Below, piece after piece: positions 22,481 through 36,450 of a stretch of 64,000 nucleotides of DNA. A program made the translations under genes and the position numbers. The notes beneath the pieces were generated by a model. That model ran no database searches and was not told the origin of the DNA. It saw only the letters and a list, made by a program, of their open reading frames with translations. Location of the stretch: assembly GCA_965243105.1 (NCBI GenBank), contig CBDEUC010000003.1, positions 2,088,370-2,152,369 on the forward strand. The letters are read 5' to 3'. The DNA comes from Gammaproteobacteria bacterium (GTDB lineage Bacteria; Pseudomonadota; Gammaproteobacteria; Eutrophobiales; Eutrophobiaceae). Each line of letters starts with the position of its first letter. Positions within the stretch are counted from its first letter, which is position 1.

Positions 22481-23152
22481 CTATTGGCCTGGTGCGAGAA
22501 GCTCGGCCAGCGAGGCCGGGCTTCCGTCGCCCTGTTTTGCATCAACGAAATTGTCGTAGTCTGCCGGGAATTGCCGCCTACCGCAGGCGTACTGCCTGGT
22601 GACATTTGCCACGTGCTCTCCGTGTAATTCTGCTGTCCTGATGTCACTGGGTGGTGGCGCATGATCCGTATCTTCATCGATATTGGCCTGTGCCATCACA
22701 CCAAGGTAACCCGCCATGCGATTAAGATCTTCCTCGCTTCCCTGGCTGGAGTAATTACCCCCGGTTATACGCATGGGCACCCAGATCATGCCCATTTGCG
22801 AGGCTGATATCACCAGCTGTTGCAGGCACGCAAGCTTGTCGCCGCTACGCCCGGCGGAGACGGTAAATCCTGCCGCGATCTTGTTAAGCCACATGCGCTT
22901 AAGCCACACCTCTCCAGCCAGCTTCTCGATGAATTCCTTGAACCTGGCAGCTACGGACCCGATGTAGGTGGGAGTGCCAAAGATGATGGCATCTGACTCG
23001 TGAAGCCGCTGCCAGCTGGAATCCACCTCTTCCACGCTGAGCATGCGCACATCAGTTCCTTCAACCTTACCAGCACCGCGTACAATTGCCTCAGCCAGTT
23101 TTTCAGTGGCACCTTTAAAATTGCTGTAGTAAACAACTGTTATCACTGTCAT
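22481..23152 (-). CDS. flavodoxin-like fold NAD(P)H-dependent oxidoreductase (WrbA/NQO-type)
   Basis: MTVITVVYYSNFKGATEKLAEAI… and a GTPTYIGS FMN-binding loop. 223 aa. Confidence 0.7.
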   Translation of the reverse strand: MTVITVVYYSNFKGATEKLAEAIVRGAGKVEGTDVRMLSVEEVDSSWQRLHESDAIIFGTPTYIGSVAARFKEFIEKLAGEVWLKRMWLNKIAAGFTVSAGRSGDKLACLQQLVISASQMGMIWVPMRITGGNYSSQGSEEDLNRMAGYLGVMAQANIDEDTDHAPPPSDIRTAELHGEHVANVTRQYACGRRQFPADYDNFVDAKQGDGSPASLAELLAPGQ

Positions 23153-23263
23153 TAACTTGTCCTCGGTCTCGTTTGCGGCATTATCAACAAAAAATAGTGT
23201 ATACGACGCCTCTTATGGAACATAATCAGGCAAGGCTTCAGCAAATAGTGATGGAGAAACACA

Positions 23264-24433
23264 GTGCAGACAAGTGAATTGGAACAAAACCAGCACGACA
23301 TGCTACCCGAAACGAACCATGATGAACTGGCGCGGCAACAGTTCGTGCGCTCATTCAAGGAACACCTCGTTGCAAACGTGCACCCGGGAAATCGATTGGC
23401 CTATGAGCATCGCGTCAAGCCCGAGTACATGAAGCAACATGATCGTGAACCTGCAGATCGATTTGAAGTGCGCGAGGTAATGACCCGGGATCCTCACTAT
23501 AGAATGTTCAGCTCCCTGCTCAGGACAAGCCAGGAGATGATGTGGTCAGCCGCGCAGAAACCGGTGCAACGCAAGCTTGGTTCCCTGGTGCAAAAGGCAG
23601 GTCAGCAGGAAAGCGCCGGTGGCAGCCTGCAACTGGACCCGGAACTGGAAATACCACGCTACCACAGGGCAGTAGACATCCATTGCCAGCCGGGTGGCTA
23701 TCACACCGAGGTGTGTGAAGACGATATTGCGGCAGGGGCTGTTTATGACCGCGCAGTATTCATTTATGCCATGGGACAGATGGGGCCTGATAATGCTGAC
23801 ATGGGTGCCAGTAATGCCGCCTGGATCAGGGAAAACTACCCGGAGTTTAAACCTGAACGCATCCTTGATATGGGTTGCGCCGTTGGGCACAGCACGCTGG
23901 CCATTGCCGACGCATGGCCGGAAGCGGAGGTGCATGCGATTGATGTAGCAGCACCCATACTGCGTTATGCCCATGCGCGTGCAGAGGCAATCGGGACAAG
24001 CGTTCACTATTCACAGCAAAATGCCGAGAACACTAATTTTGAAGATGCGTCTTTTGACCTCGTTGTATCGCATATCCTTCTTCACGAAACTTCCGAGAGT
24101 GCAATTCACAGGATCATTGCTGAGTGTCATCGGCTTTTGAAACCGGGTGGTCTCATGGTGCATGCCGAGACACCGCCCTATAAAAACCTGGAAGCGTTTG
24201 ATGCGTTCATGCTCGACTGGGACACGAGAAATAATAATGAACCATTCTGGTCCCGCTCCCATGAAATCGATTACAGGGAACTGAGTGAGAAAGCCGGGTT
24301 TGATGGCGACAATGTGTTTGAAACCATGGCGCCCAGTGCCTACCAGGTGGCGCAAGCGAAGCGTTCAAAAGTATTCCAGGGCGGCGACTTTGGCGGGGGT
24401 GGCCTTTGGTTTCTCTATGGATGTCAAAAATAG
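23264..24433 (+). CDS. class I SAM-dependent methyltransferase with a roughly 190-aa N-terminal domain of unknown function
   Basis: Motif I ILDMGCAVG, motif II DLVVSHILLHE, motif III LKPGGLMV. The N-terminal half has no recognisable family. Confidence 0.75.
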   Translation: MQTSELEQNQHDMLPETNHDELARQQFVRSFKEHLVANVHPGNRLAYEHRVKPEYMKQHDREPADRFEVREVMTRDPHYRMFSSLLRTSQEMMWSAAQKPVQRKLGSLVQKAGQQESAGGSLQLDPELEIPRYHRAVDIHCQPGGYHTEVCEDDIAAGAVYDRAVFIYAMGQMGPDNADMGASNAAWIRENYPEFKPERILDMGCAVGHSTLAIADAWPEAEVHAIDVAAPILRYAHARAEAIGTSVHYSQQNAENTNFEDASFDLVVSHILLHETSESAIHRIIAECHRLLKPGGLMVHAETPPYKNLEAFDAFMLDWDTRNNNEPFWSRSHEIDYRELSEKAGFDGDNVFETMAPSAYQVAQAKRSKVFQGGDFGGGGLWFLYGCQK

Positions 24434-24442
24434 AGAATTATC

Positions 24443-24802
24443 ATGCCGGAGAATGCAAAACTGAAACGCAGCGCAAAAGGAGAGCGCCCTTATTTCTTTG
24501 ATGATCCTGCTGTTGATAAATTACTGGCCATGCTGATGGGGCTCGCAGGCGAAGTCTCGGTGATGCGCGATCGCATTGATACCATTGAACGCGTCGCCAC
24601 GGAGAAAAAACTTTTGTCCGTCGAGGACATCGAGGCCTATGAGGCGAGCGAGGATGTCCTGAAGGAACGGGCAGAGAGACGCGAAATATTCCTTGGAGAA
24701 ATTACCCGTATCATCAGCGCTGAGCTTGAAGGCCTTGAGGACGAAAGTGAAGCGTACGATGAGGCTATTAAGCTCGTAGAGGAAACTCGAGAGAACAAAT
24801 AA
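24443..24802 (+). CDS. hypothetical small acidic protein
   Basis: 119-aa ORF that starts 10 bp after the methyltransferase stop, which suggests translational coupling. It ends at the bidirectional terminator. No recognisable family. Confidence 0.5.
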   Translation: MPENAKLKRSAKGERPYFFDDPAVDKLLAMLMGLAGEVSVMRDRIDTIERVATEKKLLSVEDIEAYEASEDVLKERAERREIFLGEITRIISAELEGLEDESEAYDEAIKLVEETRENK

Positions 24803-24830
24803 AAAAACCACCCGAAGGTGGTTATTTCAT
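24801..24830. terminator. Bidirectional rho-independent terminator
   Basis: AACCACCcgaaGGTGGTT stem with an A-tract on one side and a T-tract on the other. It terminates the 24443..24802 operon (+) and tmRNA-strand transcription (-). Confidence 0.7.
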
Positions 24831-24850
24831 TTGGTGGAGGCGGCGGGAGT
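24831..24850. repeat. 20-bp direct-repeat copy of the tmRNA 3' end (att-like scar); partner at 25023-25042
   Basis: TTGGTGGAGGCGGCGGGAGT occurs at 24831-24850 and again at 25023-25042, which is the 3' acceptor/T-arm end of ssrA. Confidence 0.7.
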
Positions 24851-25023
24851 GCTCGCAATCCTCGTGAACGGATTGCTCGGCCTGCGTTTCACTTCGGCCC
24901 GTCGGCCTTTGGCCAACGTCCTGCGCATCGCTGGCGCGATGCTGGTCGAACCGCATACGCGTGATCTCTTCCGCACCTCCTTCATAAACGACAAAAGCCA
25001 CAAAAGTGGCTTTAATCGATTAT

Positions 25024-25385
25024 TGGTGGAGGCGGCGGGAGTCGAACCCGCGTCCGCAAGTACTCTGCCTTTGGTTCTACATGCTTAGCCGACTCTATTA
25101 ATTTAACTGGCTGCTACCCGAACGGCAGGGAAAACAATCAGCGAGTTCGTAAAGTTTTAACGAATCATTCCCGAACAAAAGTCATCGCGAGCTTATGTGA
25201 GTCGACGCCTGGAACCGGGCGCATAAGCACACACCGGGCAGACGGCACCCTACTGGGTATTAAGCAGCGAGTGCGTAGTTGTCGTCGTTGGCAACTATAT
25301 AAAGTGCAGCTGGTTTAACGAGGTAATCTGCACCTCGGCATGCCCCTCGGGTTTCGCTACCCACGTCGAAGCCAAGTGCGCCCCC
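25024..25385 (-). ncRNA. ssrA: tmRNA (SsrA), tag peptide ANDDNYALAA
   Basis: Minus-strand 5' GGGGGCGCACUUGGCUUCGACGUGGGUAGCGAAACCCGAGGGGCAUGCCGAGG… and 3' …GGACGCGGGUUCGACUCCCGCCGCCUCCACCA. The tag reading frame is GCCAACGACGACAACUACGCACUCGCUGCUUAA. Length is about 362 nt. A terminator hairpin AAAGCCACttttGTGGCTTTT follows. Confidence 0.92.
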
Positions 25386-25509
25386 AAATACTAACAAGGG
25401 TTTCCGTTGCTTTAACGCATGAGGAACTGTTTTGTGGATGGGAAGTATAGTACAGCCCGTTCCATATTCTCAATATTGGGGCAGGAACGGGTAAAATCAA
25501 CGGCTGGAA

Positions 25510-26337
25510 TCAGGACTGCGGAGGAACAACGACGAGAATATCGTGATCCATGTGATTCAGGAGCTTGTCGACGATGTTGCCAAAAATACGGTTTGCCAGT
25601 GTGCTGCGAGTAGAGAGTCCCACAACAACGACATCAGCATTGATTTTCTCAGCGATCTCGGTAATAACCTCTTCCGGGTCACCAACCGATGCATGCACTT
25701 TTTCCGTGTCAATGTTCAGTCGCTTTGCTATGTCGGTGACATGCTGAAATTCATCCTGTGACGAGTAGGAATACACCGCGTGTAACTCGCAGTTTTCGTA
25801 GGCACTTGAAGCCGCTGTGCCAAAATCGATGATGGTGTCCATGAGCTTCTGGTACTCCTCGTCCTCGCGCCGGGTATCCACGGCCATCAATACGTTTTGA
25901 GGCTGGTCTGGACGATCTGTTGAAACCAGCAGCACTGAACACTGGGCTGAACTCATTAACGCCGTATCAGAGGAAGTCATCAGCAGGCGGCGCGCCGTGG
26001 AGCGACGATGTGTCGACTTGACGATGATATCGCTTTTCTCACGCACAGCTGCAGAGCCCAGTGAGCCGCGCCAGTCATTACTCCAGTCAAGCTCTCCCTC
26101 GATCTCGATGCCTTCATCCCTCACACCCTGCACAATTTGATCCAACCAGGGCTGGTACCTTGCACGTTCCACGCGTTCCAGTGCCTCGGCGTCGTGTGAA
26201 GACAGCGTTGGCGAGATACACAGATAGGCGTGGATCCTGGCGCCGGTAACGCGAGCAATTCCCATGGCACGTTGCAGTGCAATCTGCTTGTCAGTAGCCG
26301 GGTCGATGACGGTGAAAACGGTGTTGATCTCGGGCAT
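25510..26337 (-). CDS. universal stress protein with tandem UspA domains (UspE-like)
   Basis: 275-aa protein with two USP domains (…VVVGLSTRSTLANRIFGNIVDKLLNHMDHDILVV…). Confidence 0.8.
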   Translation of the reverse strand: MPEINTVFTVIDPATDKQIALQRAMGIARVTGARIHAYLCISPTLSSHDAEALERVERARYQPWLDQIVQGVRDEGIEIEGELDWSNDWRGSLGSAAVREKSDIIVKSTHRRSTARRLLMTSSDTALMSSAQCSVLLVSTDRPDQPQNVLMAVDTRREDEEYQKLMDTIIDFGTAASSAYENCELHAVYSYSSQDEFQHVTDIAKRLNIDTEKVHASVGDPEEVITEIAEKINADVVVVGLSTRSTLANRIFGNIVDKLLNHMDHDILVVVPPQS

Positions 26338-26467
26338 CTTCTTATTCCAGTCTTTTATTATTATTTATCGTAATGGCTAATGATAACGTATCTCGGGCTA
26401 TGATCCAGAGCGCGAATGCGTCAAATAGTGCACAAATTTGAGCTATTTTGGCGAAATAAAGGCCTGT

Positions 26468-26944
26468 TCAGCCCCGCTTCATAATGCGTTGTTTTTGCCT
26501 CTGCCAGTCCCTGTCCTTCAGGCTGTCCCGCTTGTCGTGAGCCTGTTTGCCCCTCGCGATACCGATTTCGACCTTGGCCTTACCTCGTTTCCAGTACATC
26601 GCCGTGACCACCAGGGTAAATCCCTTTCGTTCAACGGCACCGGTCAGGCGGTCAATCTCTTTCTTGTGTAGCAGTAATTTTCGACTCCGCCTCGGGTCCG
26701 GCGTGATATGGGTAGATGCCGTGGGAAGAGGTGTAATCAGGGTGCTTTGCAGGAAAATCTCTCCGTTCTTCAGGTGCACATAGTTATCCCGAATCTGGAC
26801 TTTACCCGCGCGCAGGCTTTTAACTTCCCACCCTTCGAGAACGATGCCTGCTTCCAGCCGATCTTCAATAAAGTAGTCATGTCTCGCCTTCTTGTTCAGA
26901 ACGATCGTGTTGGAACCCTGCTTTTGTTTTTTATCTGCTGCCAT
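26468..26944 (-). CDS. smpB: SsrA-binding protein
   Basis: [48 protein letters not shown]… is canonical SmpB. 158 aa. Confidence 0.93.
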
Positions 26945-27050
26945 GCTCTATTTGAAGGAAGTCGATACCCACCGGGAGTTATTGAAGTGAGTATAACAGC
27001 GCAGGGTAGAACACAACATCTACCGGGATACAGTGGGCAACGGGCGCCCT

Positions 27051-29465
27051 TTAGCGCATCTGGCTTTGCTGAATCGCCATGCTGGCCTGGTTTCTCAGTG
27101 TTTTGAAGAAACCAAGCGCATCCATGGAGATGTTCGTCGATGCATCATCCGTATCGGCGTAAATGACGCCGATACAGCGGTTTTTCAAAAATATCGGGTA
27201 CAGCACAACGGTGTGGGGCGCGGTCAGCTTCCTGAGCCAGTAGGGAATGCGATCGCGGTATTCGCTGGAATTACTGTCCAGCACGATAAAGTCCCGGTTC
27301 CGCGTCACCGCCACGCTGACAATGTCATCCGATGATTCTATTCGCCCTCGAAATTTGCCAGCGATCTCATCGATTTGCTTGCCCAGCCCGAACCTGCCGA
27401 CAACCTGGTTATTGCGCCTGTCATAGATACAGAAGAGCACGCGGGTGAAGCCCATACCGGTATAGATATTTTCCAGGATCATGGCGAGCACATCGTTGAG
27501 CTTGAATTCACCGAGCATGACCTCGGTGATCTCCGCGATACCTCTTACCAGCGCATCCTTGTCGCCCACGCTGGGCGCCTGCGCCGTGGTCGTGCCCTGG
27601 CTTGCCTGGACCACCGCGGTTTCATCCTGTCCTGCATGGGCGGTTTCCCCGGTGGCTGGCATGGGCACCTGGGTAATGGTTGCATCTGCATCGGGAAAGA
27701 TTTCCACGTCACTGATGTCTATGTTCAGCGCCTTGCTGAATTCCTTCATTTCCTTTTTTGAGGATTTAACCAGGCTCCTGATATCTTCCTTCTTGATACC
27801 GATGGATTTTCCATACCTCTCCGTCAGTACTTCTATCGCCTCGTCGTTATCTTCCCTGCCATTCATGCCCAGTTCACAAAGCTCGTTTGAAAAGCAGGCG
27901 AGGTGGGAAATGCGCGTATCGAGGTTTTTTGCCTCGCCAACGGGACCTTCAGGCAGGCGCTTCATACTGTTTACGATGACATCAGGTAATTGCCACTCCC
28001 TCGCGATAGCCATGCCGAGGTCATCGTAGGAGACACCGAGGACTGCCAGCGCGGCCTGTGCCTCTTCCATGCCCTTGTTATTTACCAGTCCCTTTATCTC
28101 GCCGTATTCCTCCGGGAAATAGTAAATAGCCAGCTGTTTGCCGAGCTTGTGAAACATGGCGGCAACAAAAGACGTTTCGACATCATCGTTATCAATGTCG
28201 CCCATGAGCTCAGCCTGTTCACGGGATATGATCCCACTCATCAGGGCACCGCACGCAGCCCCTTTTAATTCTGTTGCCTGCTTATTGTTCTGCAGGTGTT
28301 CAAACAGGATGATGCTGAGCGCCGCTGCCCGCACCTGCTCAAAGCCGAGAATAATCACGGCACGGGAAATAGTCGTTATTTCTCCACCGAATTGACCGTA
28401 AAAGGACGCATTAACAAGACGCAGCAGCTTGGTAGTCAGTGCATAGTCCTTGAGTATGATGTTGGCGAGCTCTGAGGCTGAGGAGTTCGTGTCGTGGGAT
28501 GAACGACGGGTTATCTGCGTAATATTGGTAGATATTGCGGGAAAATCCTGCTTGCGCTGCATGCGCCTGAGTAGAAAATCAACCGTGCCGAGGCCGGCAC
28601 TACCACCCTCATCAACAGCGATGCCGGGGTTCTCGGGCTTTGCATAGCTGTCCAGTTCTGCTTTCATTGTCACCGCGGATTCAAAACGCTGCGAGGTGTC
28701 TTTTTGCAGGGCGCCCATGACTATTTCATCCAGCTTCTTTTCAATAGATTTTTCCCGGCTCGATGGTGGCAATATGTTTTCGTTGGTTATCTTGAACATC
28801 ACTGCCATGCTGTTATCCGCGCTGAAGACCTGGTGAGCGGTTAACATTTCATAAAGAATCAGGCCAATGGCAAAGATATCAACGGAAGGTCCAAGCTCCC
28901 CGTTGGAAATTTGTTCCGGCGCCATGTAGTTGACCGTGCCTATTACATCACTGGTTCTCGATTCCGTATCAAGCATGATGGAGATGCCAAAATCCATGAT
29001 ATGCGGCACGTTCTTTGAATCGATCATGATATTGGCCGGGTTGAGATCCCTGTGCACGATACCGTTGCGATGGGCGTAACCCATCGCATCAAGCAGCTGG
29101 CGCGTGATATCCACGGCTTCGAGAGCTTTCAATCGCCCGTTACGTTTCAGCATGTCCCTGAGGGATTCGCCCTCGCACAGCTGGTAAACAAGGTAGGGAT
29201 TATTTTTCTCGACCCCGATCTCGTAGATTGGAATGATATTGAGATGTTCAAGCTTGCTGACATTGCGCGCTTCCTGGATCAGCTGGCTGTGATCGCTGCG
29301 ATGCTTGTCCAGGGTCTTGATTGCCACCTGCCTGTCCAGTTGCGGATCGTGGGCCAGGTAGACCACGCCCTGCGATCCTTTTCCAAGACAGCTCAGAACT
29401 TCAAATCGACCGATAGATTCGGGTAATTGTGCTGCCTGCAGGCTCGCTGATAACGTGGCGCTCAT
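27051..29465 (-). CDS. multidomain signalling protein: Hanks-type Ser/Thr protein kinase + HDOD domain + C-terminal GAF domain
   Basis: The N-terminus has kinase subdomains: GKGSQGVVYLA…VAIK, HRDLNPANIM, DFG, APE. The middle has an HDOD-like region (…ITQITRRSSHDTNSSASELANIILKDYALTTKLLRLVNASFYG…). The C-terminus is a GAF-like domain. 804 aa. Confidence 0.8.
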   Translation of the reverse strand: MSATLSASLQAAQLPESIGRFEVLSCLGKGSQGVVYLAHDPQLDRQVAIKTLDKHRSDHSQLIQEARNVSKLEHLNIIPIYEIGVEKNNPYLVYQLCEGESLRDMLKRNGRLKALEAVDITRQLLDAMGYAHRNGIVHRDLNPANIMIDSKNVPHIMDFGISIMLDTESRTSDVIGTVNYMAPEQISNGELGPSVDIFAIGLILYEMLTAHQVFSADNSMAVMFKITNENILPPSSREKSIEKKLDEIVMGALQKDTSQRFESAVTMKAELDSYAKPENPGIAVDEGGSAGLGTVDFLLRRMQRKQDFPAISTNITQITRRSSHDTNSSASELANIILKDYALTTKLLRLVNASFYGQFGGEITTISRAVIILGFEQVRAAALSIILFEHLQNNKQATELKGAACGALMSGIISREQAELMGDIDNDDVETSFVAAMFHKLGKQLAIYYFPEEYGEIKGLVNNKGMEEAQAALAVLGVSYDDLGMAIAREWQLPDVIVNSMKRLPEGPVGEAKNLDTRISHLACFSNELCELGMNGREDNDEAIEVLTERYGKSIGIKKEDIRSLVKSSKKEMKEFSKALNIDISDVEIFPDADATITQVPMPATGETAHAGQDETAVVQASQGTTTAQAPSVGDKDALVRGIAEITEVMLGEFKLNDVLAMILENIYTGMGFTRVLFCIYDRRNNQVVGRFGLGKQIDEIAGKFRGRIESSDDIVSVAVTRNRDFIVLDSNSSEYRDRIPYWLRKLTAPHTVVLYPIFLKNRCIGVIYADTDDASTNISMDALGFFKTLRNQASMAIQQSQMR

Positions 29466-29660
29466 GGATTTTTTAACTCTGTAATGCTTTCCCGGTATTC
29501 GTTTTGGCAGGTAGATTTACGCATGCTAAATCACCGTAATATCTATAGAATATAGCGACCGTTCCGGCCCGATCTTAAGTACGAAAAAGGCCGTGAAAAC
29601 AGGCTTCAGGAGTATGGGGGAAGCCGTAAATAACTAAAAAATAAAGAAACAGGAATATTT

Positions 29661-31061
29661 ATGGCTACTAACAGAACGTCAATTCATGGTCAGTGGTCTT
29701 CCCGCTGGGCATTTATCCTGGCTGCCACCGGCTCGGCCGTCGGTCTCGGCAATATCTGGCGATTTCCTTACCTCACCGGTGAAAACGGCGGGGGAATATT
29801 TGTCCTGTTGTACCTAGTGTGCGTATTGCTCGTTGGCATACCTATCCTCATCGCGGAAATCATGCTTGGTCGGCGCGGCAGGCAAAGCCCGATCAATACC
29901 ATGAAAGCACTGGCATCGGATGAAAACCGCAGCCAGGGTTGGCAGGTCATCGGCTGGATTGGAATGTTGACCGGGTTTCTTATCATTTCGTTTTACAGCG
30001 TGATCGCAGGCTGGACGCTCGCTTACATCGTCAGGACTGCCAGCGGGTCATTTGTGGGTGCTGAAGCCTCGGTGGTAACGAGTACCTTTAACGAACTTAT
30101 CAGTGACCCGGAAAGACTTCTCGCCTGGCACACGATTTTCATGATGATGGTTATCATTGTTGTCTCTCGAGGTGTGAAAAGCGGTCTTGAGACCGCGGTC
30201 AAGTACCTCATGCCGGCACTCTTTATTTTGCTCCTTGTAATGGTGGGCTACGCCATGACGACAGAGAAATTCATGGAAGGAATGCGCTACCTCTTTGTGC
30301 CTGATTTTGACGTGATCAGGCAGAAAATACAGGATGGCCAGTTTTTTGGTGACGTTGTGCTTAACGCCCTGGGCCAGGCGTTTTTCAGTCTTAGTCTTGG
30401 CATGGGAGCGATCATGGTCTACGGCTCTTACCTGTCATCACAGTCATCCATTCCACGAACGGCAGTCATCATTGCCCTGGCCGACACCAGCGTGGCACTG
30501 CTGGCCGGTATTGCCATCTTCCCGGTAGTTTTCACATTCGGCATGGAGCCTTCAAGCGGCCCGGGCCTGATATTCGTCACCCTGACCGTGGCATTTGGAC
30601 AAATGGATGGTGGCGCATTTTTTGGCACCCTGTTTTTTTTCCTGTTGATGTTTGCCGCGTGGACTTCGGGAATTTCCATTCTTGAACCCGCGGTGGCGTG
30701 GCTGGTGGAGTATCGCAACATGACGCGAGTACGTGCTGCAGCTTTTGCCGGTTTTGGCGCCTGGTTACTGGGTGTGGGCACGGTGTTATCGTTTAACCAC
30801 TGGGCCTTTAGTTTTACCTTTGCCGGGCAGGAAAAAACATCAGGGCTTTTTGATGTGTTCGATACCCTGACGGCAAATGTGCTGCTACCGGTGGGAGGAT
30901 TGTTGATTGCTATTTTCGCCGCGTGGATCCTGTCCCGGGATGCCGCTGCCGAAGAGCTGGGTATAAGTGACAGGGTTTTTGCCGCCTGGCAGTTTGCAGC
31001 ACGATTTATCGCGCCGGCCGGCGTCATCCTGATTTTCCTGAATGCAATTGGCGTAGTTTAA
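29661..31061 (+). CDS. sodium-dependent transporter, NSS (SNF) family
   Basis: WSSRWAFILAATGSAVGLGNIWRFPYLTGENGGG is the NSS signature. 466 aa, about 12 TM segments. Confidence 0.88.
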   Translation: MATNRTSIHGQWSSRWAFILAATGSAVGLGNIWRFPYLTGENGGGIFVLLYLVCVLLVGIPILIAEIMLGRRGRQSPINTMKALASDENRSQGWQVIGWIGMLTGFLIISFYSVIAGWTLAYIVRTASGSFVGAEASVVTSTFNELISDPERLLAWHTIFMMMVIIVVSRGVKSGLETAVKYLMPALFILLLVMVGYAMTTEKFMEGMRYLFVPDFDVIRQKIQDGQFFGDVVLNALGQAFFSLSLGMGAIMVYGSYLSSQSSIPRTAVIIALADTSVALLAGIAIFPVVFTFGMEPSSGPGLIFVTLTVAFGQMDGGAFFGTLFFFLLMFAAWTSGISILEPAVAWLVEYRNMTRVRAAAFAGFGAWLLGVGTVLSFNHWAFSFTFAGQEKTSGLFDVFDTLTANVLLPVGGLLIAIFAAWILSRDAAAEELGISDRVFAAWQFAARFIAPAGVILIFLNAIGVV

Positions 31062-31089
31062 GCGCCGCAGTCTTGTTGGAGAGCATTTA

Positions 31090-31527
31090 GTGGAGTCCAT
31101 TACAAAGTCAGTGGTGGTGCCGTATACCGCGGAGCAGATGTATGAACTCGTCAATAATGTAAGTGCTTATCCCGAATTTTTACCCTGGTGCAGTGCTTCA
31201 CAGGTTCATGAGCAAAATGAACACTACATGAAGGCCTCGGTTTCACTTGCCTCCGGTGCGGTGAAGCAGACCTTTACCACCGCAAATACCTTGACGCCGG
31301 GAGAAAGAATAGAGGTGGCACTGGTGTCAGGCCCCTTTAAGCAGCTCAATGGATACTGGTCTTTTGAACAAGCCGGTGACGACATGAGCAAGATCGATTT
31401 CAGGATGAGCTACGAATATAAAAACCGGATCATCAAGCTTGCGCTCAACAAAATATTTACTCGCATCGGTGATACGCTCGTCAGCAGCTTCGTAGAGCGT
31501 GCACACAAGCTGTATGGACAGAAGTAA
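31090..31527 (+). CDS. ratA: SRPBCC-fold ribosome-association toxin RatA (YfjG) family
   Basis: 145-aa protein with a GTG start and YPEFLPWC, a motif conserved in RatA/YfjG-family proteins. It is followed by an overlapping rnfH, the conserved ratA-rnfH pairing near smpB. Confidence 0.8.
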   Translation: MESITKSVVVPYTAEQMYELVNNVSAYPEFLPWCSASQVHEQNEHYMKASVSLASGAVKQTFTTANTLTPGERIEVALVSGPFKQLNGYWSFEQAGDDMSKIDFRMSYEYKNRIIKLALNKIFTRIGDTLVSSFVERAHKLYGQK

Positions 31528-31861
31528 GCCGGTGATAACGATCGAAGTTGCCTACGTGAGAGAGGGTTGTTCCTACCTGCTGCCTGTCACACTTTCCCAA
31601 GCCGAGACGGTAAGGGAAGTGATAGACAGGTCGGGTGTCCTGCAGCAATGCCCGGAAATTGACCTGCTGACAAACAAGGTCGGAATTCATGGAAAGGTAT
31701 GTGCACTGGATGACATGGTTGTCGATGGAAATCGAATAGAAATTTATCGACCCCTGCGGGCAGACCCAAAGGACAGCAGGCGCAGGCGAGCAGAGAAACA
31801 AAAAAAATCTGCCCGGCCTCCAGGTCCCGCAGGGGAAGCATCCACGAAGCTTCGAAACTGA
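31514..31861 (+). CDS. rnfH: RnfH-family ubiquitin-like protein (YfjF/UPF0125)
   Basis: MDRSKPVITIEVAYVREG…IEIYRPLRADPKD is the RnfH fold. The start is taken at ATG 31514, which overlaps the ratA 3' end. Confidence 0.75.
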   Translation: MDRSKPVITIEVAYVREGCSYLLPVTLSQAETVREVIDRSGVLQQCPEIDLLTNKVGIHGKVCALDDMVVDGNRIEIYRPLRADPKDSRRRRAEKQKKSARPPGPAGEASTKLRN

Positions 31862-31877
31862 AGAGTGTTGGGCCTGC

Positions 31878-32849
31878 ATGCCACGATTTATTCTTATCCC
31901 TTTAATCCTGCTGGTTTTATGTGGCCTGTCACTGGGATACTCCCTGGCCAGCGGTAGTATTGATATCAGCCTCGGGGAACTTGTTTCAATCCTCCTTGGA
32001 GACAGGGACAGTCACAATGCCCGCGTTGTGATGGAACTCAGGTTACCGCGGGTTATCTCGGGCTTCGTGGTTGGTGGCCTGCTTGCCCTTGCCGGGGCAC
32101 TGATGCAGGTATTGCTAAAGAACCCACTTGCGGAGCCCTACGTACTGGGCGTATCCGGTGGCGCGTCTGTTTTTGCACTTGTTACCATGATGCTGGGTGT
32201 TGCCGGTGCGTGGTTGAATATCTCTGCCGCAGTTGGTGCACTGTTCTCGATTTTCCTTGTGTTTGGCCTGGCCCAGTCTGCGCGTAACTGGAACCCGCTC
32301 AGGGTGTTGTTAACGGGTGTAGTCGTTGCAGCCGGGTGGGGGGCGCTGGTGAGTTTTCTATTGGCCACGAGTCGTGCATCACAGTTGCATGGCATGTTGT
32401 TCTGGCTAATGGGTGACCTGGAATATGCCCGCAGCTATCACCTCGCTGGTGTGACCCTGCTGGCAGGTACACTCATTAGCATGGCAATGGCGAGGGGACT
32501 AAATTTACTTGCCATGGGTGAGGACCAGGCCTTGACCCTGGGAGTCAATGTAAGCCAGCTACGCTACCTGGTTTATTTCCTCGCCTCGCTGCTCACTGCC
32601 GTGGCAGTAACCCAGGCCGGGAACATCGGCTTTGTTGGTTTAATCGTGCCGCACCTGGTTCGCCTGCTGATCGGTAGTGACCACCGGATTCTTTTACCCG
32701 TTGCAGTGCTGGCAGGCGGTTGCCTGCTTGTCGTTGCTGATGGGCTTGCGAGAACCATAATTGCACCTGAGCAACTTCCAGTCGGGGTATTAACGGCCAT
32801 GATAGGCGTACCGCTTTTCCTGGTTCTTCTACACAGGATGACGAGATGA
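31878..32849 (+). CDS. ABC transporter permease, FecCD/BtuC family
   Basis: 323-aa protein with the FecCD signature region (…RLPRVISGFVVGGLLALAGALMQVLLKNPLAEPYVLGVSGGAS…). Confidence 0.85.
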   Translation: MPRFILIPLILLVLCGLSLGYSLASGSIDISLGELVSILLGDRDSHNARVVMELRLPRVISGFVVGGLLALAGALMQVLLKNPLAEPYVLGVSGGASVFALVTMMLGVAGAWLNISAAVGALFSIFLVFGLAQSARNWNPLRVLLTGVVVAAGWGALVSFLLATSRASQLHGMLFWLMGDLEYARSYHLAGVTLLAGTLISMAMARGLNLLAMGEDQALTLGVNVSQLRYLVYFLASLLTAVAVTQAGNIGFVGLIVPHLVRLLIGSDHRILLPVAVLAGGCLLVVADGLARTIIAPEQLPVGVLTAMIGVPLFLVLLHRMTR

Positions 32850-33625
32850 ACGCCAGCCCGGAGCTACTTCAAACCCGCTCATTGCGCGTGGATATTGCCG
32901 GCCGCACAATTTGCGATCAGTTGAATTTCAAGCTGAAGCGGGGAGAGTGCTGGGGAATACTGGGTGGTAATGGCATCGGCAAGACAACCCTGCTTAGAAC
33001 CCTGGCCGGCTTACGTTCCGACTGGCACGGGGAAATCCTGGTCGAAGGACAGGATCTGCGTCGATGGAAGCGTAAACCGCTGGCCCAACGCCTGGGCATG
33101 CTATTCCAGGACAGCATGGATGTCTTTCCTGTCACGGTGCTGGAGACCGTATTATCGGGGCGTTATCCATACATCCCGGCTTTTGCCATGGAAGGAAAGG
33201 AAGACAGGAAAATTGCCATGCAGGCACTTTCGGCAGTGGAACTTGACCAGATGCAGCACAGGCAGGTTGACTCCCTGTCAGGTGGAGAAAGAAGACGACT
33301 GGCTATAGCAACGCTCATCGTGCAGGACCCGGATATCTGGCTACTTGATGAGCCGACCAACCATCTTGATTTACATCACCAGGTCACCCTGCTTGAGCAG
33401 GTGTTGCAAAGGGTGAGTGAACACAATGGTGCGGTGATGATGGTGATGCACGACATCAACCTGCTGACTCGTTTTTGTAGCCACGCGATGCTGATGGTTA
33501 ATCAGGAAAATATTATATGCGGTGACCTTGATACGGTTTTAACCACGGAGAACCTGAGTGCCCTGTACAGGCACCCGGTAAAGAGAATAACGCAGGGGAA
33601 TGATGCGTTTTTTTACCCGGCCTGA
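32846..33625 (+). CDS. ABC transporter ATP-binding protein, FecE/BtuD-like
   Basis: Walker A GGNGIGKTT, signature LSGGERRR, Walker B IWLLDEPT. It overlaps the permease stop by 4 nt. Confidence 0.88.
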   Translation: MNASPELLQTRSLRVDIAGRTICDQLNFKLKRGECWGILGGNGIGKTTLLRTLAGLRSDWHGEILVEGQDLRRWKRKPLAQRLGMLFQDSMDVFPVTVLETVLSGRYPYIPAFAMEGKEDRKIAMQALSAVELDQMQHRQVDSLSGGERRRLAIATLIVQDPDIWLLDEPTNHLDLHHQVTLLEQVLQRVSEHNGAVMMVMHDINLLTRFCSHAMLMVNQENIICGDLDTVLTTENLSALYRHPVKRITQGNDAFFYPA

Positions 33626-33634
33626 AAACCGGGT

Positions 33635-34210
33635 CTACGGCGTTTCAGCGACTTCTTCCACGCTTTCGTCGCTAGCGGCTGTATCTTCTTCCTCATCTTC
33701 CTTGTAGGTGTCGTCATTTTCGTCGGACTTTTCTATGCGCTTTGGTTCGTCGTCACCGACAAAGGGAATAACATTAACAAGCTTGCTGAAAAAGCCTTCT
33801 TTCTTTCTTTTTGACCTGTCTGGAACATCGACGGTCTTTCTTTCCTTGCGATAATTCTCGGGTGGCTTTCGAATACCCTGCACAATACTGCCGTCCAGGT
33901 AGGCAAGCTTGTCGTCCTCAAAAAATATGGTGATATGGCGCTGCTGTCGTCTTTTGCCGCCTTTTGAAAATGTGTAGATGTATTCCCACCGGTCCTGGCG
34001 AAAAGGGTCCACGATGGTTGGTGTCCCCATGATGAAATGCACCTGGTCCTTGGCCATACCGGGTTTTAGTTTATCCAGCATCTCCTGCTCGATAACATTT
34101 CCCTGCTGAATATCGATACGATAGACACCCGGCAGTTTTCGCGTGCCTTCCCCGCTACAGCCCTGAAGAGCGACAAGAAAAATGGTGAGAAAAATAAAAC
34201 GATTAGACAT
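33635..34210 (-). CDS. bamE: outer-membrane assembly lipoprotein BamE (SmpA/OmlA) with an extended acidic C-terminal tail
   Basis: Signal peptide plus lipobox LQGCS, then the BamE core (…LKPGMAKDQVHFIMGTPTIVDPF…WEYIY…). It carries about 70 extra C-terminal residues rich in D/E/K. It is divergent from fur, as in Pseudomonas omlA-fur. Confidence 0.8.
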   Translation of the reverse strand: MSNRFIFLTIFLVALQGCSGEGTRKLPGVYRIDIQQGNVIEQEMLDKLKPGMAKDQVHFIMGTPTIVDPFRQDRWEYIYTFSKGGKRRQQRHITIFFEDDKLAYLDGSIVQGIRKPPENYRKERKTVDVPDRSKRKKEGFFSKLVNVIPFVGDDEPKRIEKSDENDDTYKEDEEEDTAASDESVEEVAETP

Positions 34211-34379
34211 ATCAACAACTTAATTCTGTTACCTTGATTCACTATTGTAGCCCAACATATGAATAATCACACCTTCCTTTGAAAGTGGTGCGACAGGGGT
34301 TGCGCTATTGGTTATACTTTTTACCTTCAATGCCCGGCTCGTACCGGGGCCAACAAAAGCAGGATAATCGTAAGACAAG

Positions 34380-34781
34380 ATGCAACCCAGCGAGTTAAAA
34401 CAGGCAGGCCTCAAGGCGACATTGCCGCGAATTCGAATTCTCGAGATTCTCGAGGCTTCGGACCAGAAACACATGAGCGCGGAGGATGTTTACAAGGCCC
34501 TGATAGGGGCTGGAGAAGATGTTGGCCTGGCGACTGTGTATCGCGTTCTCACGCAGTTTGAAACCGCCAACCTCGTCAAGCGTCACAACTTCGATTCAGG
34601 TCACTCAGTTTTTGAGCTGGATAAAGGCGAACATCATGACCACATGGTTTGCCTGGAAACAGACAAGGTTATCGAGTTTCATAATGAAGAGATTGAACAA
34701 CTTCAAAAGAAGATAGCGGAAGAGCATGGCTACCAGTTACAGGACCATAGCCTTGTTCTCTACGTGACCCCCAAAAAGTAG
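34380..34781 (+). CDS. fur: ferric uptake regulator
   Basis: 133-aa protein LKATLPRIRILEILE…MSAEDVYKAL…ATVYRVLTQFE…HHDHMVCL, canonical Fur. Confidence 0.93.
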   Translation: MQPSELKQAGLKATLPRIRILEILEASDQKHMSAEDVYKALIGAGEDVGLATVYRVLTQFETANLVKRHNFDSGHSVFELDKGEHHDHMVCLETDKVIEFHNEEIEQLQKKIAEEHGYQLQDHSLVLYVTPKK

Positions 34782-34785
34782 CGAA

Positions 34786-36450
34786 TCAGTGTAGTAGCAT
34801 TTCCCTGGCGTGTTCACGGCTTTGTTCGGTGATCTGTATTCCACCAAGCATACGCGCGATTTCTTCAATTCGTTCACTTTCGTCCAGTTCTGAAACTTCA
34901 GTCACGGTGCTGTCTGCAGAACTGGATTTTTGCACCTGCAGGTGGTTATTGGCGAGTGACGCAACCTGCGCAAGATGGGTGACACAAAATACCTGGTGAC
35001 GTGGCGCCAGGCTTTGCAACAGCTTGCCGACAATTTCCGCAGTAGCTCCGCCTATTCCTGCATCAACTTCGTCAAAGACCAGCGTCGGGATCAGCCTTGA
35101 ATTATTGCTGATAACCTGGATGGCCAGGCTGATACGGGATAACTCACCACCTGAGGCGACTTTACGAAGGGCCTGTGGGGCCTGCCCCGGGTTAGCAGAG
35201 ACCAGGAAATCGATGTCGTCACTTCCGTTTTGCAGGGGTTTCTCAATGGACAGTTTTTCAACGTTAACGACAAAACTGCTGCCGGGCATGCCCAGATCGG
35301 CAAGTGAGGCTGTCACGCTTGCTGATATTTTTTTGGCCGCCTTCAGCCTGCATTCATGTAATTCAGTAGAAGCCTGCCTGTACTCTTCCATGCAGGCGTC
35401 ACGCTTTTGCAGCAACTCTTCCAGCAGCCCTTCGCTTTGATTCAGCTGCGACAGCTGTTGCTGCAATTCCTGCAGTAGTTCGTAGACCTGGGATGATGGG
35501 ATGTCATGTTTCCTGGCCACGTCATGGAAACTACCAAGACGCTGCTCCACGTTTTGCAGGCGTTCGGGGTCACTATCCACCTGGTCAAGGTAGTGACGTA
35601 TTTCATCACCGGCTTCACTGAGCTGGATTACAGCGTTGTCGACCAACTCAACAGCGTTGGCCAGGCCTTCATCAAACTGCAGTGCCTCCTGTAAATCATT
35701 TACCGTGGCTGCCAGCATGTTCCCCGCGGAGTATTCATCCTCCCTGATGACCTGCAGGGATTTTTGCACCAGTTCGATAATACGGCTTGCATTATCCAGG
35801 CGCCGAAATTCATCATTCAGGGCTTCGTATTCATTTTCCTCGGGAGCCAGGTTTTCCAGTTCCTCTACCTGGTAAGCAAGCAGGTTTTGCCGCGCCCTGT
35901 GGTCTTCAGTATTACCACTGAGCTGGCTGATACTATCCTGTAGTTCATGCCATTCCCGGCAGGCCCTGTTGACCCGCTCCAGCTCACTGGCATGACCGCC
36001 GAAGTCATCCAGCAGGACTCGCTGCGCATCCCGCTTCATCAATGACTGGTGAGCATGTTGGCCATGGATATCTACGAGGTGTTCCCCGAGTTGACGCAGC
36101 AGGCTGGCCGGTACAGGCGTGCCATTAACAAAGGCACGAGAGCGCCCGTCACTGTTTACCACTCGTCGAAGCATCAGCTCGTTGTCCTCGAGGCTGATAG
36201 CCTGCTCCTCCAGCACTTCACGCAGCTCAGGGATATCAGGTGTATCAAAACTGGCGCTGATCTCCGTTCTCTCGCTGCCATCACGAATGATCCCGCTATC
36301 GGCACGATCTCCCAGTACCAGGCCAAGTGCATCGACCAGGATTGATTTGCCCGCGCCGGTTTCCCCGGTAAACACGGTCATGCCGTTTGAAAAACCCAGT
36401 TCCAGTTCTTCAATCACCGCGAGGTTGCGAATCATCAGCTGCTTAAGCAT
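34786..36450 (-). CDS. recN: DNA repair protein RecN
   Basis: 554-aa protein MLKQLMIRNLAVIEELELGF…FTGETGAGKSIL, an SMC-like coiled coil with a C-terminal signature. It is convergent with fur. Confidence 0.93.
   Translation of the reverse strand: MLKQLMIRNLAVIEELELGFSNGMTVFTGETGAGKSILVDALGLVLGDRADSGIIRDGSERTEISASFDTPDIPELREVLEEQAISLEDNELMLRRVVNSDGRSRAFVNGTPVPASLLRQLGEHLVDIHGQHAHQSLMKRDAQRVLLDDFGGHASELERVNRACREWHELQDSISQLSGNTEDHRARQNLLAYQVEELENLAPEENEYEALNDEFRRLDNASRIIELVQKSLQVIREDEYSAGNMLAATVNDLQEALQFDEGLANAVELVDNAVIQLSEAGDEIRHYLDQVDSDPERLQNVEQRLGSFHDVARKHDIPSSQVYELLQELQQQLSQLNQSEGLLEELLQKRDACMEEYRQASTELHECRLKAAKKISASVTASLADLGMPGSSFVVNVEKLSIEKPLQNGSDDIDFLVSANPGQAPQALRKVASGGELSRISLAIQVISNNSRLIPTLVFDEVDAGIGGATAEIVGKLLQSLAPRHQVFCVTHLAQVASLANNHLQVQKSSSADSTVTEVSELDESERIEEIARMLGGIQITEQSREHAREMLLH

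What the first reader, a model, noticed from the sequence alone, without database searches (positions are those of the whole stretch)
24801..25385. ssrA (tmRNA) followed by a 20-bp direct repeat of its own 3' end, an att-like integration scar with only about 170 bp in between
The tmRNA 3' end is a classic integration site for genomic islands and prophages. Integrases regenerate the 3' end and leave a partial duplicate at the far island border. Here the exact 20-mer TTGGTGGAGGCGGCGGGAGT (minus-strand ACTCCCGCCGCCTCCACCAA) occurs at the tmRNA end (25023-25042) and again 192 bp downstream (24831-24850). Each copy is followed by its own terminator hairpin: AAAGCCAC-TTTT-GTGGCTTT for the first and AACCACC-TTCG-GGTGGTT plus a T7 run for the second. 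No integrase is present. The pattern is consistent with an island that integrated and was later deleted, leaving attL/attR plus about 170 bp, or with a tiny non-autonomous element.
Basis: seen in the sequence. Interest (0 to 1): 0.55.

Follow-up and report, generated by a model that had tools for sequence, protein, structure and literature searches.

The report
Tiny cargo-less insert at tmRNA gene
The tmRNA gene of this uncultured gammaproteobacterium carries a 192-bp insertion in its last 20 bases that brings a replacement gene end and terminator; it looks like a mobile-element integration site with no integrase or cargo, is present or absent among close strains, and is shared across species, so it is a real but fairly ordinary integration relic with some odd conserved features.

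Summary
The tmRNA gene lies at 25024-25385 (-). Its last 19 nt plus one base recur exactly at 24831-24850, and each copy has its own terminator.

Relatives show a discrete 192-bp insertion. One strain (L001) has tmRNA joined directly to the second hairpin. A strain with 99-100% identical flanks (L019) carries the insert. So the proximal repeat and hairpin 1 came in with the insert, and the distal repeat and hairpin 2 are the original gene end.

The insert was not left by a recent island loss in this genome. The same int-less, cargo-less unit occurs in five other assemblies, in four different downstream contexts. It is 97.6% identical between lineages whose genes are only 76-81% identical. No full-length parent element was found.

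The interior has three parts:
- a terminator module homologous to the native one;
- a decayed copy of the 23 nt of tmRNA that precede the repeat;
- a 94-nt hairpin-rich segment (X) that is far better conserved than neighbouring intergenic DNA.

Best reading: an extremely reduced att-flanked remnant (CIME-like, essentially bare attP arms), now spread by recombination. Rivals are a non-integrase duplication, a functional RNA, and a relic of a T-loop intron.

The parts
25024..25385 (-). ssrA (tmRNA) gene, standard one-piece form, tag ANDDNYALAA
   Evidence: ARAGORN; Rfam RF00023 at 229.7 bits, model positions 1-374
25023..25042 (-). Repeat copy 1 (attL-like core): ACTCCCGCCGCCTCCACCAA. This is the functional tmRNA 3' end (T-loop ACU, T-stem 3' half, acceptor 3' strand, ACCA) plus 1 nt.
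   Evidence: Invariant in all relatives with the standard gene form.
24984..25022 (-). 'termB' module: TAATCGATT, the hairpin AAAGCCAC-TTTT-GTGGCTTT (25013-24994) and a U-rich tail. It is the terminator brought in by the insert.
   Evidence: Terminator scan. Absent from the empty site L001 and present in L005, L008, L016 and L019. It aligns with the native termA module.
24971..24980 (-). GGAGGTGCGG. It is complementary to CCGCCGCCTCC of repeat copy 2 and forms the closing stem of the predicted fold.
   Evidence: There is no covariation support.
24947..24968 (-). Decayed copy (GAGATCACGCGTATGCGGTTCG) of the 23 nt of tmRNA immediately 5' of the repeat (GAGTACTTGCGGACGCGGGTTCG). It includes the T-stem 5' half and TTCG of the T-loop.
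   Evidence: End-anchored alignment: 6 of 20000 shuffles reach the score for the window, 0 of 20000 for L016. It ends where the X-type and Y-type relatives diverge.
24851..24944 (-). Segment X (94 nt): four or five hairpins and four direct GGCCRA repeats. It sits exactly between the pseudo T-arm 5' half and repeat copy 2 (T-loop position 7).
   Evidence: 95.7% identical to L016 against 62-72% for flanking intergenic DNA, and 97.9% to L003 against 84-85%. GGCCGA x4 is reached in 12 of 5000 shuffles. Folds. No Rfam family.
24831..24850 (-). Repeat copy 2 (attR-like core): the displaced original tmRNA 3' end, not part of any RNA gene call.
   Evidence: It decays in relatives: 1 mismatch in L003/L009, 1 substitution plus 1 insertion in L016, strongly decayed in L017.
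24797..24830 (.). 'termA': the native bidirectional terminator AACCACC-TTCG-GGTGGTT plus T7. It served ssrA before the insertion and also ends the convergent 119-aa gene.
   Evidence: It directly follows the tmRNA in the empty-site strain L001 and in L003, L004 and L009.
24443..24802 (+). Convergent 119-aa conserved hypothetical gene whose stop codon lies in the T-run of termA. It marks the outer limit of the feature.

Best explanation
The feature is a 192-bp, integrase-less and cargo-less insertion in the T-loop/3' end of ssrA, bounded by a 20-bp direct repeat. It is most likely the extreme end-product of decay of an ssrA-targeting integrative element, that is, a CIME-like remnant consisting of little more than the two attP arms.

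Proposed mechanism:
1. (Inferred) A tyrosine-integrase element recombined with ssrA inside the 20-bp identity block that starts in the T-loop.
2. (Shown) The insert's own copy of the last 20 nt plus its terminator (termB) now completes the tmRNA gene. The original 3' end and the native terminator (termA) are displaced 192 bp downstream.
3. (Inferred) Integrase and cargo were lost long ago. What remains is a P'-side arm (termB module plus about 50 nt) and a P-side arm (segment X with four GGCCRA repeats).
4. (Shown) The unit is now a presence/absence allele within one population and has crossed species boundaries.
5. (Partly shown) Spread is at least partly by homologous recombination using the conserved tmRNA gene as an anchor. 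Mobilisation by an integrase acting in trans, or in tandem with an intact element, is possible but untested.

The displaced copy is non-functional and decays in some lineages.
For: 1. The repeat starts in the T-loop and runs to CCA+1. This is the classic position and length for ssrA/tRNA att cores: a 20-bp DR with T-loop insertion is reported for Dehalococcoides ssrA islands (PMC3146451)..
2. Empty/occupied pair. L001 has tmRNA-termA. L019 has tmRNA-[termB-XL-X-core]-termA, with 319/320 upstream and 211/213 downstream identity.
3. The same unit occurs in four different downstream contexts: window, L003/L009, L016 and L019.
4. The unit tree is incongruent with the host tree. L016-L019 units are 97.6% identical although their smpB and usp genes are 76-81% identical. 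Window-L019 units are 93.5% identical with genes at 92-93%.
5. Copy 1 is invariant, whereas copy 2 accumulates changes in L003/L009, L016 and L017.
6. The region downstream of ssrA is a variable hotspot with different cargo in different strains.
7. X carries four direct GGCCGA repeats (12 of 5000 shuffles). It evolves several-fold more slowly than adjacent intergenic DNA, as binding-site-rich att arms would.
8. The interior is about the size of a complete attP (lambda attP is about 240 bp; from general knowledge).
Against: - No integrase or full-length parent was found in any of six occurrences, nor in phage, plasmid, IMG/VR or JGI metagenome searches. Those scans needed exact matches.
- The four SNPs that separate L001 from L019 all lie in the last 85 nt of tmRNA next to the insert. 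This points to allele exchange by homologous recombination rather than site-specific crossover at the T-loop.
- The insert's termB module and the following GGTGCGGA.GAGAA motif are homologous to the native termA module. L003/L009 carry a 62-bp repeat. Both facts equally fit a local duplication.
- All four combinations of terminator type and downstream type exist, so the modules recombine independently.
- A 192-bp circle is probably too small to be an efficient recombination substrate by itself (general knowledge).
- The decayed T-arm 5' half lies 94 nt from copy 2 rather than abutting it, so at least one extra event (insertion of X) is required.
Confidence: 0.5

Rival explanations
1. The feature arose by a local segmental (tandem) duplication of the ssrA 3' end, terminator and downstream spacer through replication slippage or unequal crossing-over, with no integrase involved. 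The copies then diverged and spread by homologous recombination.
For: The termB and termA modules and the following GGTGCGGA.GAGAA motif align with each other. L003/L009 have a 62-bp near-perfect repeat covering core, termA and 12 nt. Native DNA after termA in L001/L019 and L016 again starts with the same motif, so the locus looks like a repeat of units. The SNP tract indicates exchange by homologous recombination. No integrase was found anywhere.
Against: The left breakpoint falls exactly in the T-loop, giving a 20-bp repeat. That is expected for integrases but has only about a 1% prior for a random breakpoint within the gene. X has no second copy nearby. The unit is 97.6% identical between species that are about 78% identical, which needs horizontal transfer in any case.
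Confidence: 0.2
2. Segment X plus repeat copy 2 is a functional structured RNA made by read-through of termB from the strong ssrA promoter. It would have a tRNA-like closing acceptor-type stem and an ACCA tail. The repeat would then be maintained because it is part of that RNA, not because it is a scar.
For: X is as conserved as tmRNA itself (95.7% against 94.5% between the window and L016), while flanking intergenic DNA is 62-72% identical. X is also more conserved than the adjacent XL segment (83%). All four variable sites in X lie in predicted loops or give G-U pairs. The fold has z = -3.6, with a 10-bp stem GGAGGUGCGG/CCGCCGCCUCC followed by ACCA.
Against: There is no compensatory change in four sequences, no promoter, no Rfam family, and no ARAGORN call. 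The unit is absent from conspecific strains: L001 has none, and L004, L005 and L008 have a different 'Y' sequence. Copy 2, and with it the closing stem, is damaged in L003/L009, L016 and L017. The high identity can be explained by recent transfer.
Confidence: 0.12
3. The distal half (decayed T-arm 5' half, X, copy 2 and termA) is the relic of an older ssrA 3' end that carried a group I intron in the T-loop. An intron-less 3' end plus termB was later placed upstream of it, and X is the collapsed intron.
For: A relative (L014, usp 79% DNA / 90% aa identity) has a 269-nt group I intron at T-loop position 7 of ssrA (Rfam RF00028, 43.8 bits, E = 9.5e-10). X lies at the same internucleotide position, flanked by a recognisable T-arm 5' half and 3' half. 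X begins with the same five bases (CAGCA) and contains a hairpin resembling the intron's P8. Intron-form tmRNA genes are known, with position 7 as the main site (PMC11915505).
Against: X-intron similarity is not significant: 133 of 1000 shuffles reach the local score and 36 of 500 the global score. X has no group I core, no Rfam hit, no -1 U and no terminal G. At 94 nt it is far too short. A neutral relic should not be 96-98% conserved. The empty/occupied pair L001/L019 shows that X moves together with termB as one unit.
Confidence: 0.08
4. The repeat is a chance repeat or an assembly artefact.
For: None beyond the general possibility. Many metagenome contigs break near this locus.
Against: None of 100 shuffles gives 2 or more hits. 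The same architecture appears in five independent assemblies from different samples.
Confidence: 0.01

Closest known systems
Genomic islands and prophages integrated at ssrA (for example Dehalococcoides ssrA-GIs, PMC3146451; E. coli CP4-57 and the P4-type 20-bp core, from general knowledge)
   Same: There is a 20-bp direct repeat of the tmRNA 3' end starting in the T-loop. The insert regenerates the gene end. The displaced partial copy marks the far border. The locus is a variable hotspot, and an empty site exists in a close relative.
   Different: Only 172 bp lie between the repeats. There is no integrase, integration module or cargo in any of six occurrences, and no parent element was found.
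CIMEs (cis-mobilizable elements): decayed ICEs/IMEs that keep attL and attR but have lost integration and transfer genes (definition in PMC5704250; int-less ssrA islands in PMC3146451)
   Same: The unit is flanked by att-like repeats, lacks an integrase, is inherited and transferred between lineages, and lies in a site where accretion of further elements is plausible.
   Different: Described CIMEs are kilobases long and carry genes. This unit is 192 bp, essentially bare arms. Mobilisation in cis has not been shown, and the one informative pair points to homologous recombination instead.
Intron-form tmRNA genes (group I intron in the T-loop, mainly at position 7; PMC11915505)
   Same: Segment X interrupts a decayed tmRNA 3' fragment at the same loop position. 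A genuine intron-form gene exists in a related species (L014).
   Different: X has no detectable group I core or splice-site rules, and it lies in a non-functional downstream copy. The functional gene here is intron-less.
Partial tRNA/tmRNA gene fragments left as scars of past integrations (general knowledge; Williams' work on integration sites in tRNA and tmRNA genes)
   Same: The distal copy is a non-functional 3' fragment that decays in some lineages.
   Different: Here the DNA between the gene and the scar is itself conserved well above background and is shared across species.

Membership tests
Integrative element at ssrA (genomic island / prophage) | Direct repeat of the target gene's 3' segment at both borders, with the proximal copy completing the gene | tested here: met
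   Exact 20-mer at 25023-42 and 24831-50. The proximal copy is the tmRNA 3' end.
Integrative element at ssrA (genomic island / prophage) | Uninterrupted (empty) target site in a close relative | tested here: met
   L001 against L019, with flanks 99-100% identical.
Integrative element at ssrA (genomic island / prophage) | Integrase gene inside the element, next to one att site | tested here: not met
   The interior is 172 bp with no credible ORF: 3 of 4 substitutions in the only long frame are non-synonymous (my reading of the sequences). No integrase occurs in the neighbourhood.
Integrative element at ssrA (genomic island / prophage) | Cargo genes, foreign composition, kilobase size | tested here: not met
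   The unit is 192 bp, and its GC content is indistinguishable from the surroundings.
Integrative element at ssrA (genomic island / prophage) | Excision to a circle plus a restored attB | not testable with these tools
   This needs reads or PCR across the junctions.
CIME (cis-mobilizable element) | Retains attL and attR | tested here: met
   Both 20-bp cores are intact in the window and in L019. Copy 2 is damaged in L003/L009, L016 and L017.
CIME (cis-mobilizable element) | [quoted passage not shown] | tested here: met
   No genes lie between the repeats.
CIME (cis-mobilizable element) | Derived by decay from an ICE, IME or prophage with the same att arms | tested here: inconclusive
   No parent was found with exact-match junction or internal patterns in IMG/VR and JGI metagenomes, nor by blastn against phages and plasmids.
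CIME (cis-mobilizable element) | Mobilised in cis by an element integrated in tandem | not testable with these tools
   There is only indirect evidence of horizontal spread. The L001/L019 SNP tract suggests homologous recombination.
Group I intron in the tmRNA T-loop (intron-form ssrA) | Insertion within the T-loop (main site is position 7) | tested here: met
   X lies between ...GGTTCGAC and TCCCGCC of a decayed 3' fragment. This is the same position as the L014 intron.
Group I intron in the tmRNA T-loop (intron-form ssrA) | Conserved catalytic core (P3-P9) detectable by a covariance model | tested here: not met
   There is no Intron_gpI hit at E <= 10 on the interior or at E <= 1 on 3 kb. 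X is only 94 nt.
Group I intron in the tmRNA T-loop (intron-form ssrA) | U at -1 and terminal G | tested here: not met
   The -1 base is C (or A), and the last base is C (sequence). The rules are taken from PMC11915505.
Second tmRNA/tRNA-like gene | Recognised by tRNA/tmRNA detectors, with a T-arm and acceptor stem | tested here: not met
   ARAGORN finds a single gene. Rfam gives only a sub-threshold tmRNA_permuted hit of 30.5 bits (gathering score 47), driven by the real 3' end.
Intrinsic (Rho-independent) terminators | GC-rich hairpin followed by a T-run, downstream of a gene end | tested here: met
   Both hairpins pass the scan. Their function has not been tested.

The most novel reading that the evidence does not exclude
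The 192-bp unit is not a dead scar. It would be the smallest kind of integrative element: a self-contained 'naked attP' (core, P' arm with its own terminator, and P arm with four GGCCRA sites) that keeps moving between species by borrowing an ssrA-specific integrase, alone or in tandem with an intact element. Alternatively or additionally, its conserved 94-nt segment together with the duplicated tmRNA end is a read-through RNA with a tRNA-like acceptor stem and CCA tail that has a function linked to tmRNA.
Probability: 0.15. Interest if true: 0.65.

Novelty: new member of a known kind. Interest (0 to 1): 0.38.

Why it matters
Integration scars at tRNA and tmRNA genes are routine. Island-finding pipelines ignore anything this small, so units like this one are invisible in current catalogues.

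- This case shows that a cargo-less, integrase-less att-flanked unit can persist and stay polymorphic within a population.
- It can be exchanged between species, and it replaces the 3' end and terminator of an essential RNA gene.
- If the conserved 94-nt segment proves to be integrase or accessory-protein binding DNA, the unit would be a natural minimal attP. That would be a handle for finding the cognate ssrA integrase, which is useful for targeted-insertion tools.
- If the segment is instead an RNA, it would be a new tmRNA-linked transcript.
- The locus also illustrates how an intron-form ssrA and att-type insertions target the same T-loop position in sister species.

Tried and rejected
1. 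blastn of 24803-25060 against phages and plasmids gave only hits to the tmRNA 3' end. Nothing matched the interior.
2. Exact-pattern scans for both junctions, for an internal X 26-mer and for the commoner termB variant in IMG/VR gave 0 hits. The attR junction in JGI metagenomes also gave 0 hits.
3. A tmRNA-specific 23-mer in JGI metagenomes gave one contig (L012). It has the same tmRNA end, a third terminator type and no repeat, so it was uninformative.
4. The genome-contig scan with the Usp protein returned only L001.
5. Usp homologues at about 60% identity are not linked to ssrA.
6. The unanchored similarity of the interior to tmRNA was not significant. Only the end-anchored test was.
7. X against the L014 intron was not significant, so the intron-relic idea is kept only as a low-probability rival.
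8. Rfam at E <= 10 on the interior gave nothing meaningful: CRISPR-DR46, rsmX and similar families at 7-23 bits.
9. RNAalifold on four sequences showed no compensatory pairs, so structure is neither supported nor refuted.
10. A protein-coding reading of the 52-58-aa ORFs across X was rejected. Substitutions are mostly non-synonymous, the frame is not kept in L016, and the only database 'homologue' is an antisense ORF call on another copy of the same DNA.
11. The 2.3-kb three-gene block beyond termA was considered as part of a larger island and rejected. No further copy of the core exists with up to 3 mismatches, and the block lies outside the repeats.
Full report
OBSERVATION
The window holds one tmRNA gene at 25024-25385 on the minus strand, with tag ANDDNYALAA (ARAGORN). 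Rfam RF00023 matches it full length at 229.7 bits. The 20-mer ACTCCCGCCGCCTCCACCAA (minus-strand sense) occurs at 25042-25023 and 24850-24831 and nowhere else in the 64 kb, even with three mismatches. None of 100 shuffles gave two hits.
- In tmRNA terms the repeat is the last 3 nt of the T-loop, the 3' T-stem, the 3' acceptor strand, ACCA and one extra A.
- Each copy is followed by a terminator-like hairpin: 25013-24994, and 24823-24806 plus a T7 run. The second scores on both strands, and its T-run contains the stop codon of a convergent 119-aa gene.

WHICH COPY IS ORIGINAL
The only GTDB genome hit (L001, a MAG) is 89.8% identical to window 25023-36327. There the tmRNA ends ...CCACCAA and is followed directly by ATGAAAAAACCACCTACGGGTGGTTTTTTT, which is the window's second hairpin. 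The distal repeat and hairpin 2 (termA) are therefore the native gene end. The proximal repeat, hairpin 1 (termB) and the 172 bp came in as a 192-bp insertion.

I made a trick search with the translated ORFs that cross the interior. It retrieved one more contig, L019.
- L019's flanks are those of L001: usp 3' end 201/201, usp plus intergenic region 319/320, downstream DNA 211/213.
- L019 nevertheless carries tmRNA-core-termB-...-core-termA.
- This is a clean occupied/empty pair within one population.

DISTRIBUTION
Contigs encoding the same SmpB, or close Usp or 119-aa homologues, gave further alleles.

| Locus | Relation to window | Arrangement downstream of tmRNA |
|---|---|---|
| L003, L009 (same population as L001) | genes 92-93% identical | core-termA-XL-X-core(1 mismatch)-termA, a 62-bp repeat, then a different downstream sequence |
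| L016 | genes only 76-81% identical | core-termB-XL-X-core(2 changes)-termA, then 1.1 kb of AT-rich DNA with a PEP-CTERM-type gene before the 119-aa gene |
| L017 | 119-aa protein 92% identical | badly decayed second core |
| L004, L005, L008 | same population as L001 | termA or termB, the shared XL motif, then a different 'Y' sequence with only patchy similarity to X; no second core within 1.1 kb |
| L012 | same tmRNA 3' end | a third terminator type and no repeat |

- None of the six occupied loci has an integrase or any gene between the repeats.
- All four combinations of terminator type (A or B) and downstream type (X or Y) exist, so the modules recombine.
- Many contigs break at this locus, as expected for a strain-variable site.

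ANATOMY OF THE INTERIOR (minus-strand order)
1. The termB module (25022-24984). It aligns with the native termA module at about 60% identity.
2. GGAGGTGCGG (24980-24971).
3. GAGATCACGCGTATGCGGTTCG (24968-24947).
   - This is a decayed copy of the 23 nt of tmRNA immediately 5' of the repeat (GAGTACTTGCGGACGCGGGTTCG).
   - In an end-anchored test at most 6 of 20000 shuffles reach the score, and 0 of 20000 for L016.
   - The unanchored test was not significant.
   - The anchor is the point where the X and Y alleles diverge. Because I located it with a motif, the statistic is somewhat favoured.
4. Segment X (24944-24851, 94 nt), which lies between that pseudo T-arm 5' half and the second core.

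The distal copy is thus really a 43-nt tmRNA 3' fragment split by X at T-loop position 7.

X has four or five hairpins and four direct GGCCGA repeats (12 of 5000 shuffles). On the tmRNA-sense strand, the region from GGAGGUGCGG to the second core folds with a 10-bp closing stem followed by ACCA (z = -3.6).

CONSERVATION

| Segment | Window vs L016 | Window vs L003 |
|---|---|---|
| smpB | 75.7% | genes 92-93% |
| usp | 80.6% | genes 92-93% |
| intergenic DNA | 62-72% | 84-85% |
| tmRNA | 94.5% | 99.4% |
| termB | 91.7% | not applicable (L003 has termA there) |
| XL | 83% | 86.7% |
| X | 95.7% | 97.9% |
| core 2 | 95% | 95% |
| termA | 88% | 82.4% |

- Whole units: L016-L019 97.6%, window-L019 93.5%, window-L016 92.3%.
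- Host genes: L016 is 76-81% identical to all the others, and the window is 92-93% identical to the L001/L003/L019 population.
- The unit tree is therefore incongruent with the host tree, which implies at least one transfer between species.
- X is also more conserved than the rest of the unit.
- The four variable sites in X are in predicted loops or give G-U pairs, but there is no compensatory change in four sequences. RNA structure is neither supported nor refuted.
- Rfam finds nothing for the interior.

HOW THE ALLELE MOVES
L001 and L019 differ by the insert plus four SNPs. All four lie in the last 85 nt of tmRNA, while there are no differences in the preceding 258 nt of tmRNA and one in the 320 nt of usp and intergenic DNA upstream of the gene. 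That is the signature of a homologous-recombination tract that carried the occupied or the empty allele, not of a crossover at the T-loop. Whatever created the unit, this pair points to allelic replacement as one present-day route of spread. The conserved tmRNA gene gives the left anchor.

INTERPRETATION
The position and length of the repeat, the supply of a replacement 3' end and terminator, the empty site, the hotspot context and the horizontal spread all match the known behaviour of ssrA-targeting integrative elements. Examples are the 20-bp DR, T-loop insertion, tandem arrays and int-less islands in Dehalococcoides (PMC3146451). The decayed derivatives of such elements are called CIMEs (definition in PMC5704250).

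The simplest account is an ancient integration whose integrase and cargo were lost, leaving about 78 nt of the P'-side arm and 94 nt of the P-side arm. That is roughly the size of a complete attP. I put this at about 0.5.

Three facts keep it from being higher:
- no parent element was found;
- the P'-side arm is homologous to the native flank;
- the pseudo T-arm half is separated from its partner by X, which needs an additional event.

A non-integrase duplication (0.2) explains the homology between the modules. It does not explain the T-loop breakpoint or X. A functional read-through RNA (0.12) explains the conservation of X, but it conflicts with the unit's absence from conspecific strains and with the damaged closing stem in several lineages.

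THE INTRON LEAD
A related species (L014) has its ssrA interrupted at T-loop position 7 by a 269-nt group I intron (Rfam RF00028, 43.8 bits, E = 9.5e-10). ARAGORN misses this gene. Intron-form tmRNA genes, with position 7 as the main site, are known (PMC11915505).

X occupies the same position in the decayed fragment, starts with the same CAGCA and has a P8-like hairpin. However, the similarity is not significant and no group I features are detectable. I keep 'X is a collapsed intron' as a low-probability rival (0.08).

VERDICT
The feature is real and is not an artefact. It is wrong in implying a recent island loss in this genome. The unit is an old, tiny, gene-less allele shared across lineages. 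It belongs with known att-flanked remnants at ssrA (a new member of a known kind). The unexplained points are the strong conservation of the 94-nt segment and the split pseudo T-arm.

Noticed in passing
L014 2061-2329 (ena ERZ893782 k147_1180041): The ssrA gene of a related species is interrupted at T-loop position 7 by a 269-nt group I intron with no homing endonuclease gene. Rfam Intron_gpI scores 43.8 bits, just under the gathering score of 50. ARAGORN fails to call this tmRNA. This is a known gene form (PMC11915505).
   Followed up: partly
window 22481-24802: A three-gene block (flavodoxin-like FMN reductase, 389-aa SAM methyltransferase, 119-aa conserved hypothetical) lies between termA and the AIM24/TIGR00266-type gene. 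It is present in the window and L016 but absent in L001/L019, where only 49 nt stand in its place. It has no flanking tmRNA-like repeat.
   Followed up: partly
L016 3515-4734; L018 950-1312; L004 2700-3820: The space between the ssrA terminator and the 119-aa gene holds different cargo in different strains. L016 has a 269-aa fibrinogen_C-like protein with a PEP-CTERM-type tail. L018 has an RTX-like GGxGxD-repeat protein. L004 has a 151-aa lipoprotein-like protein in AT-rich DNA. The window has nothing there. None of these has an integrase or a second core.
   Followed up: partly
window 24443-24802 (+): The 119-aa acidic, coiled-coil-like protein has about 300 homologues (50-92% identity), almost all from uncultured Gammaproteobacteria. 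It has no Pfam domain. One source labels a homologue 'RecB family exonuclease', which looks like a mis-annotation.
   Followed up: no
window 24958-25058 (-): A sub-threshold Rfam tmRNA_permuted hit (30.5 bits, E = 0.001) spans the real tmRNA 3' end, hairpin 1 and GGAGGUGCGGAAGAGAUCACGCG. The last of these is aligned to a tmRNA 5' acceptor strand. The hit is probably driven by the genuine T-arm.
   Followed up: partly
window 24851-24944 (-): There are four direct repeats of GGCCGA (GGCCAA for the first in the window) within 41 nt of segment X. They could be arm-type protein-binding sites or simply parts of the hairpins.
   Followed up: partly
window 27051-29465 (-): An 804-aa Ser/Thr protein kinase fused to an HDOD domain lies immediately upstream of smpB. 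It is conserved in the same position in L002 and L013.
   Followed up: no
L009 2529-2542: The contig ends in the Illumina adapter sequence AGATCGGAAGAGCA, so its last bases are not genomic.
   Followed up: yes
L001/L002 (GCA_964639535.1, CAZXDV010000045.1): The record is titled 'uncultured Enterobacteriaceae bacterium'. Its tmRNA tag (ANDDNYALAA) and all named close homologues ('MAG: Gammaproteobacteria bacterium') suggest a different, uncultured gammaproteobacterial lineage, so the label may be wrong.
   Followed up: no
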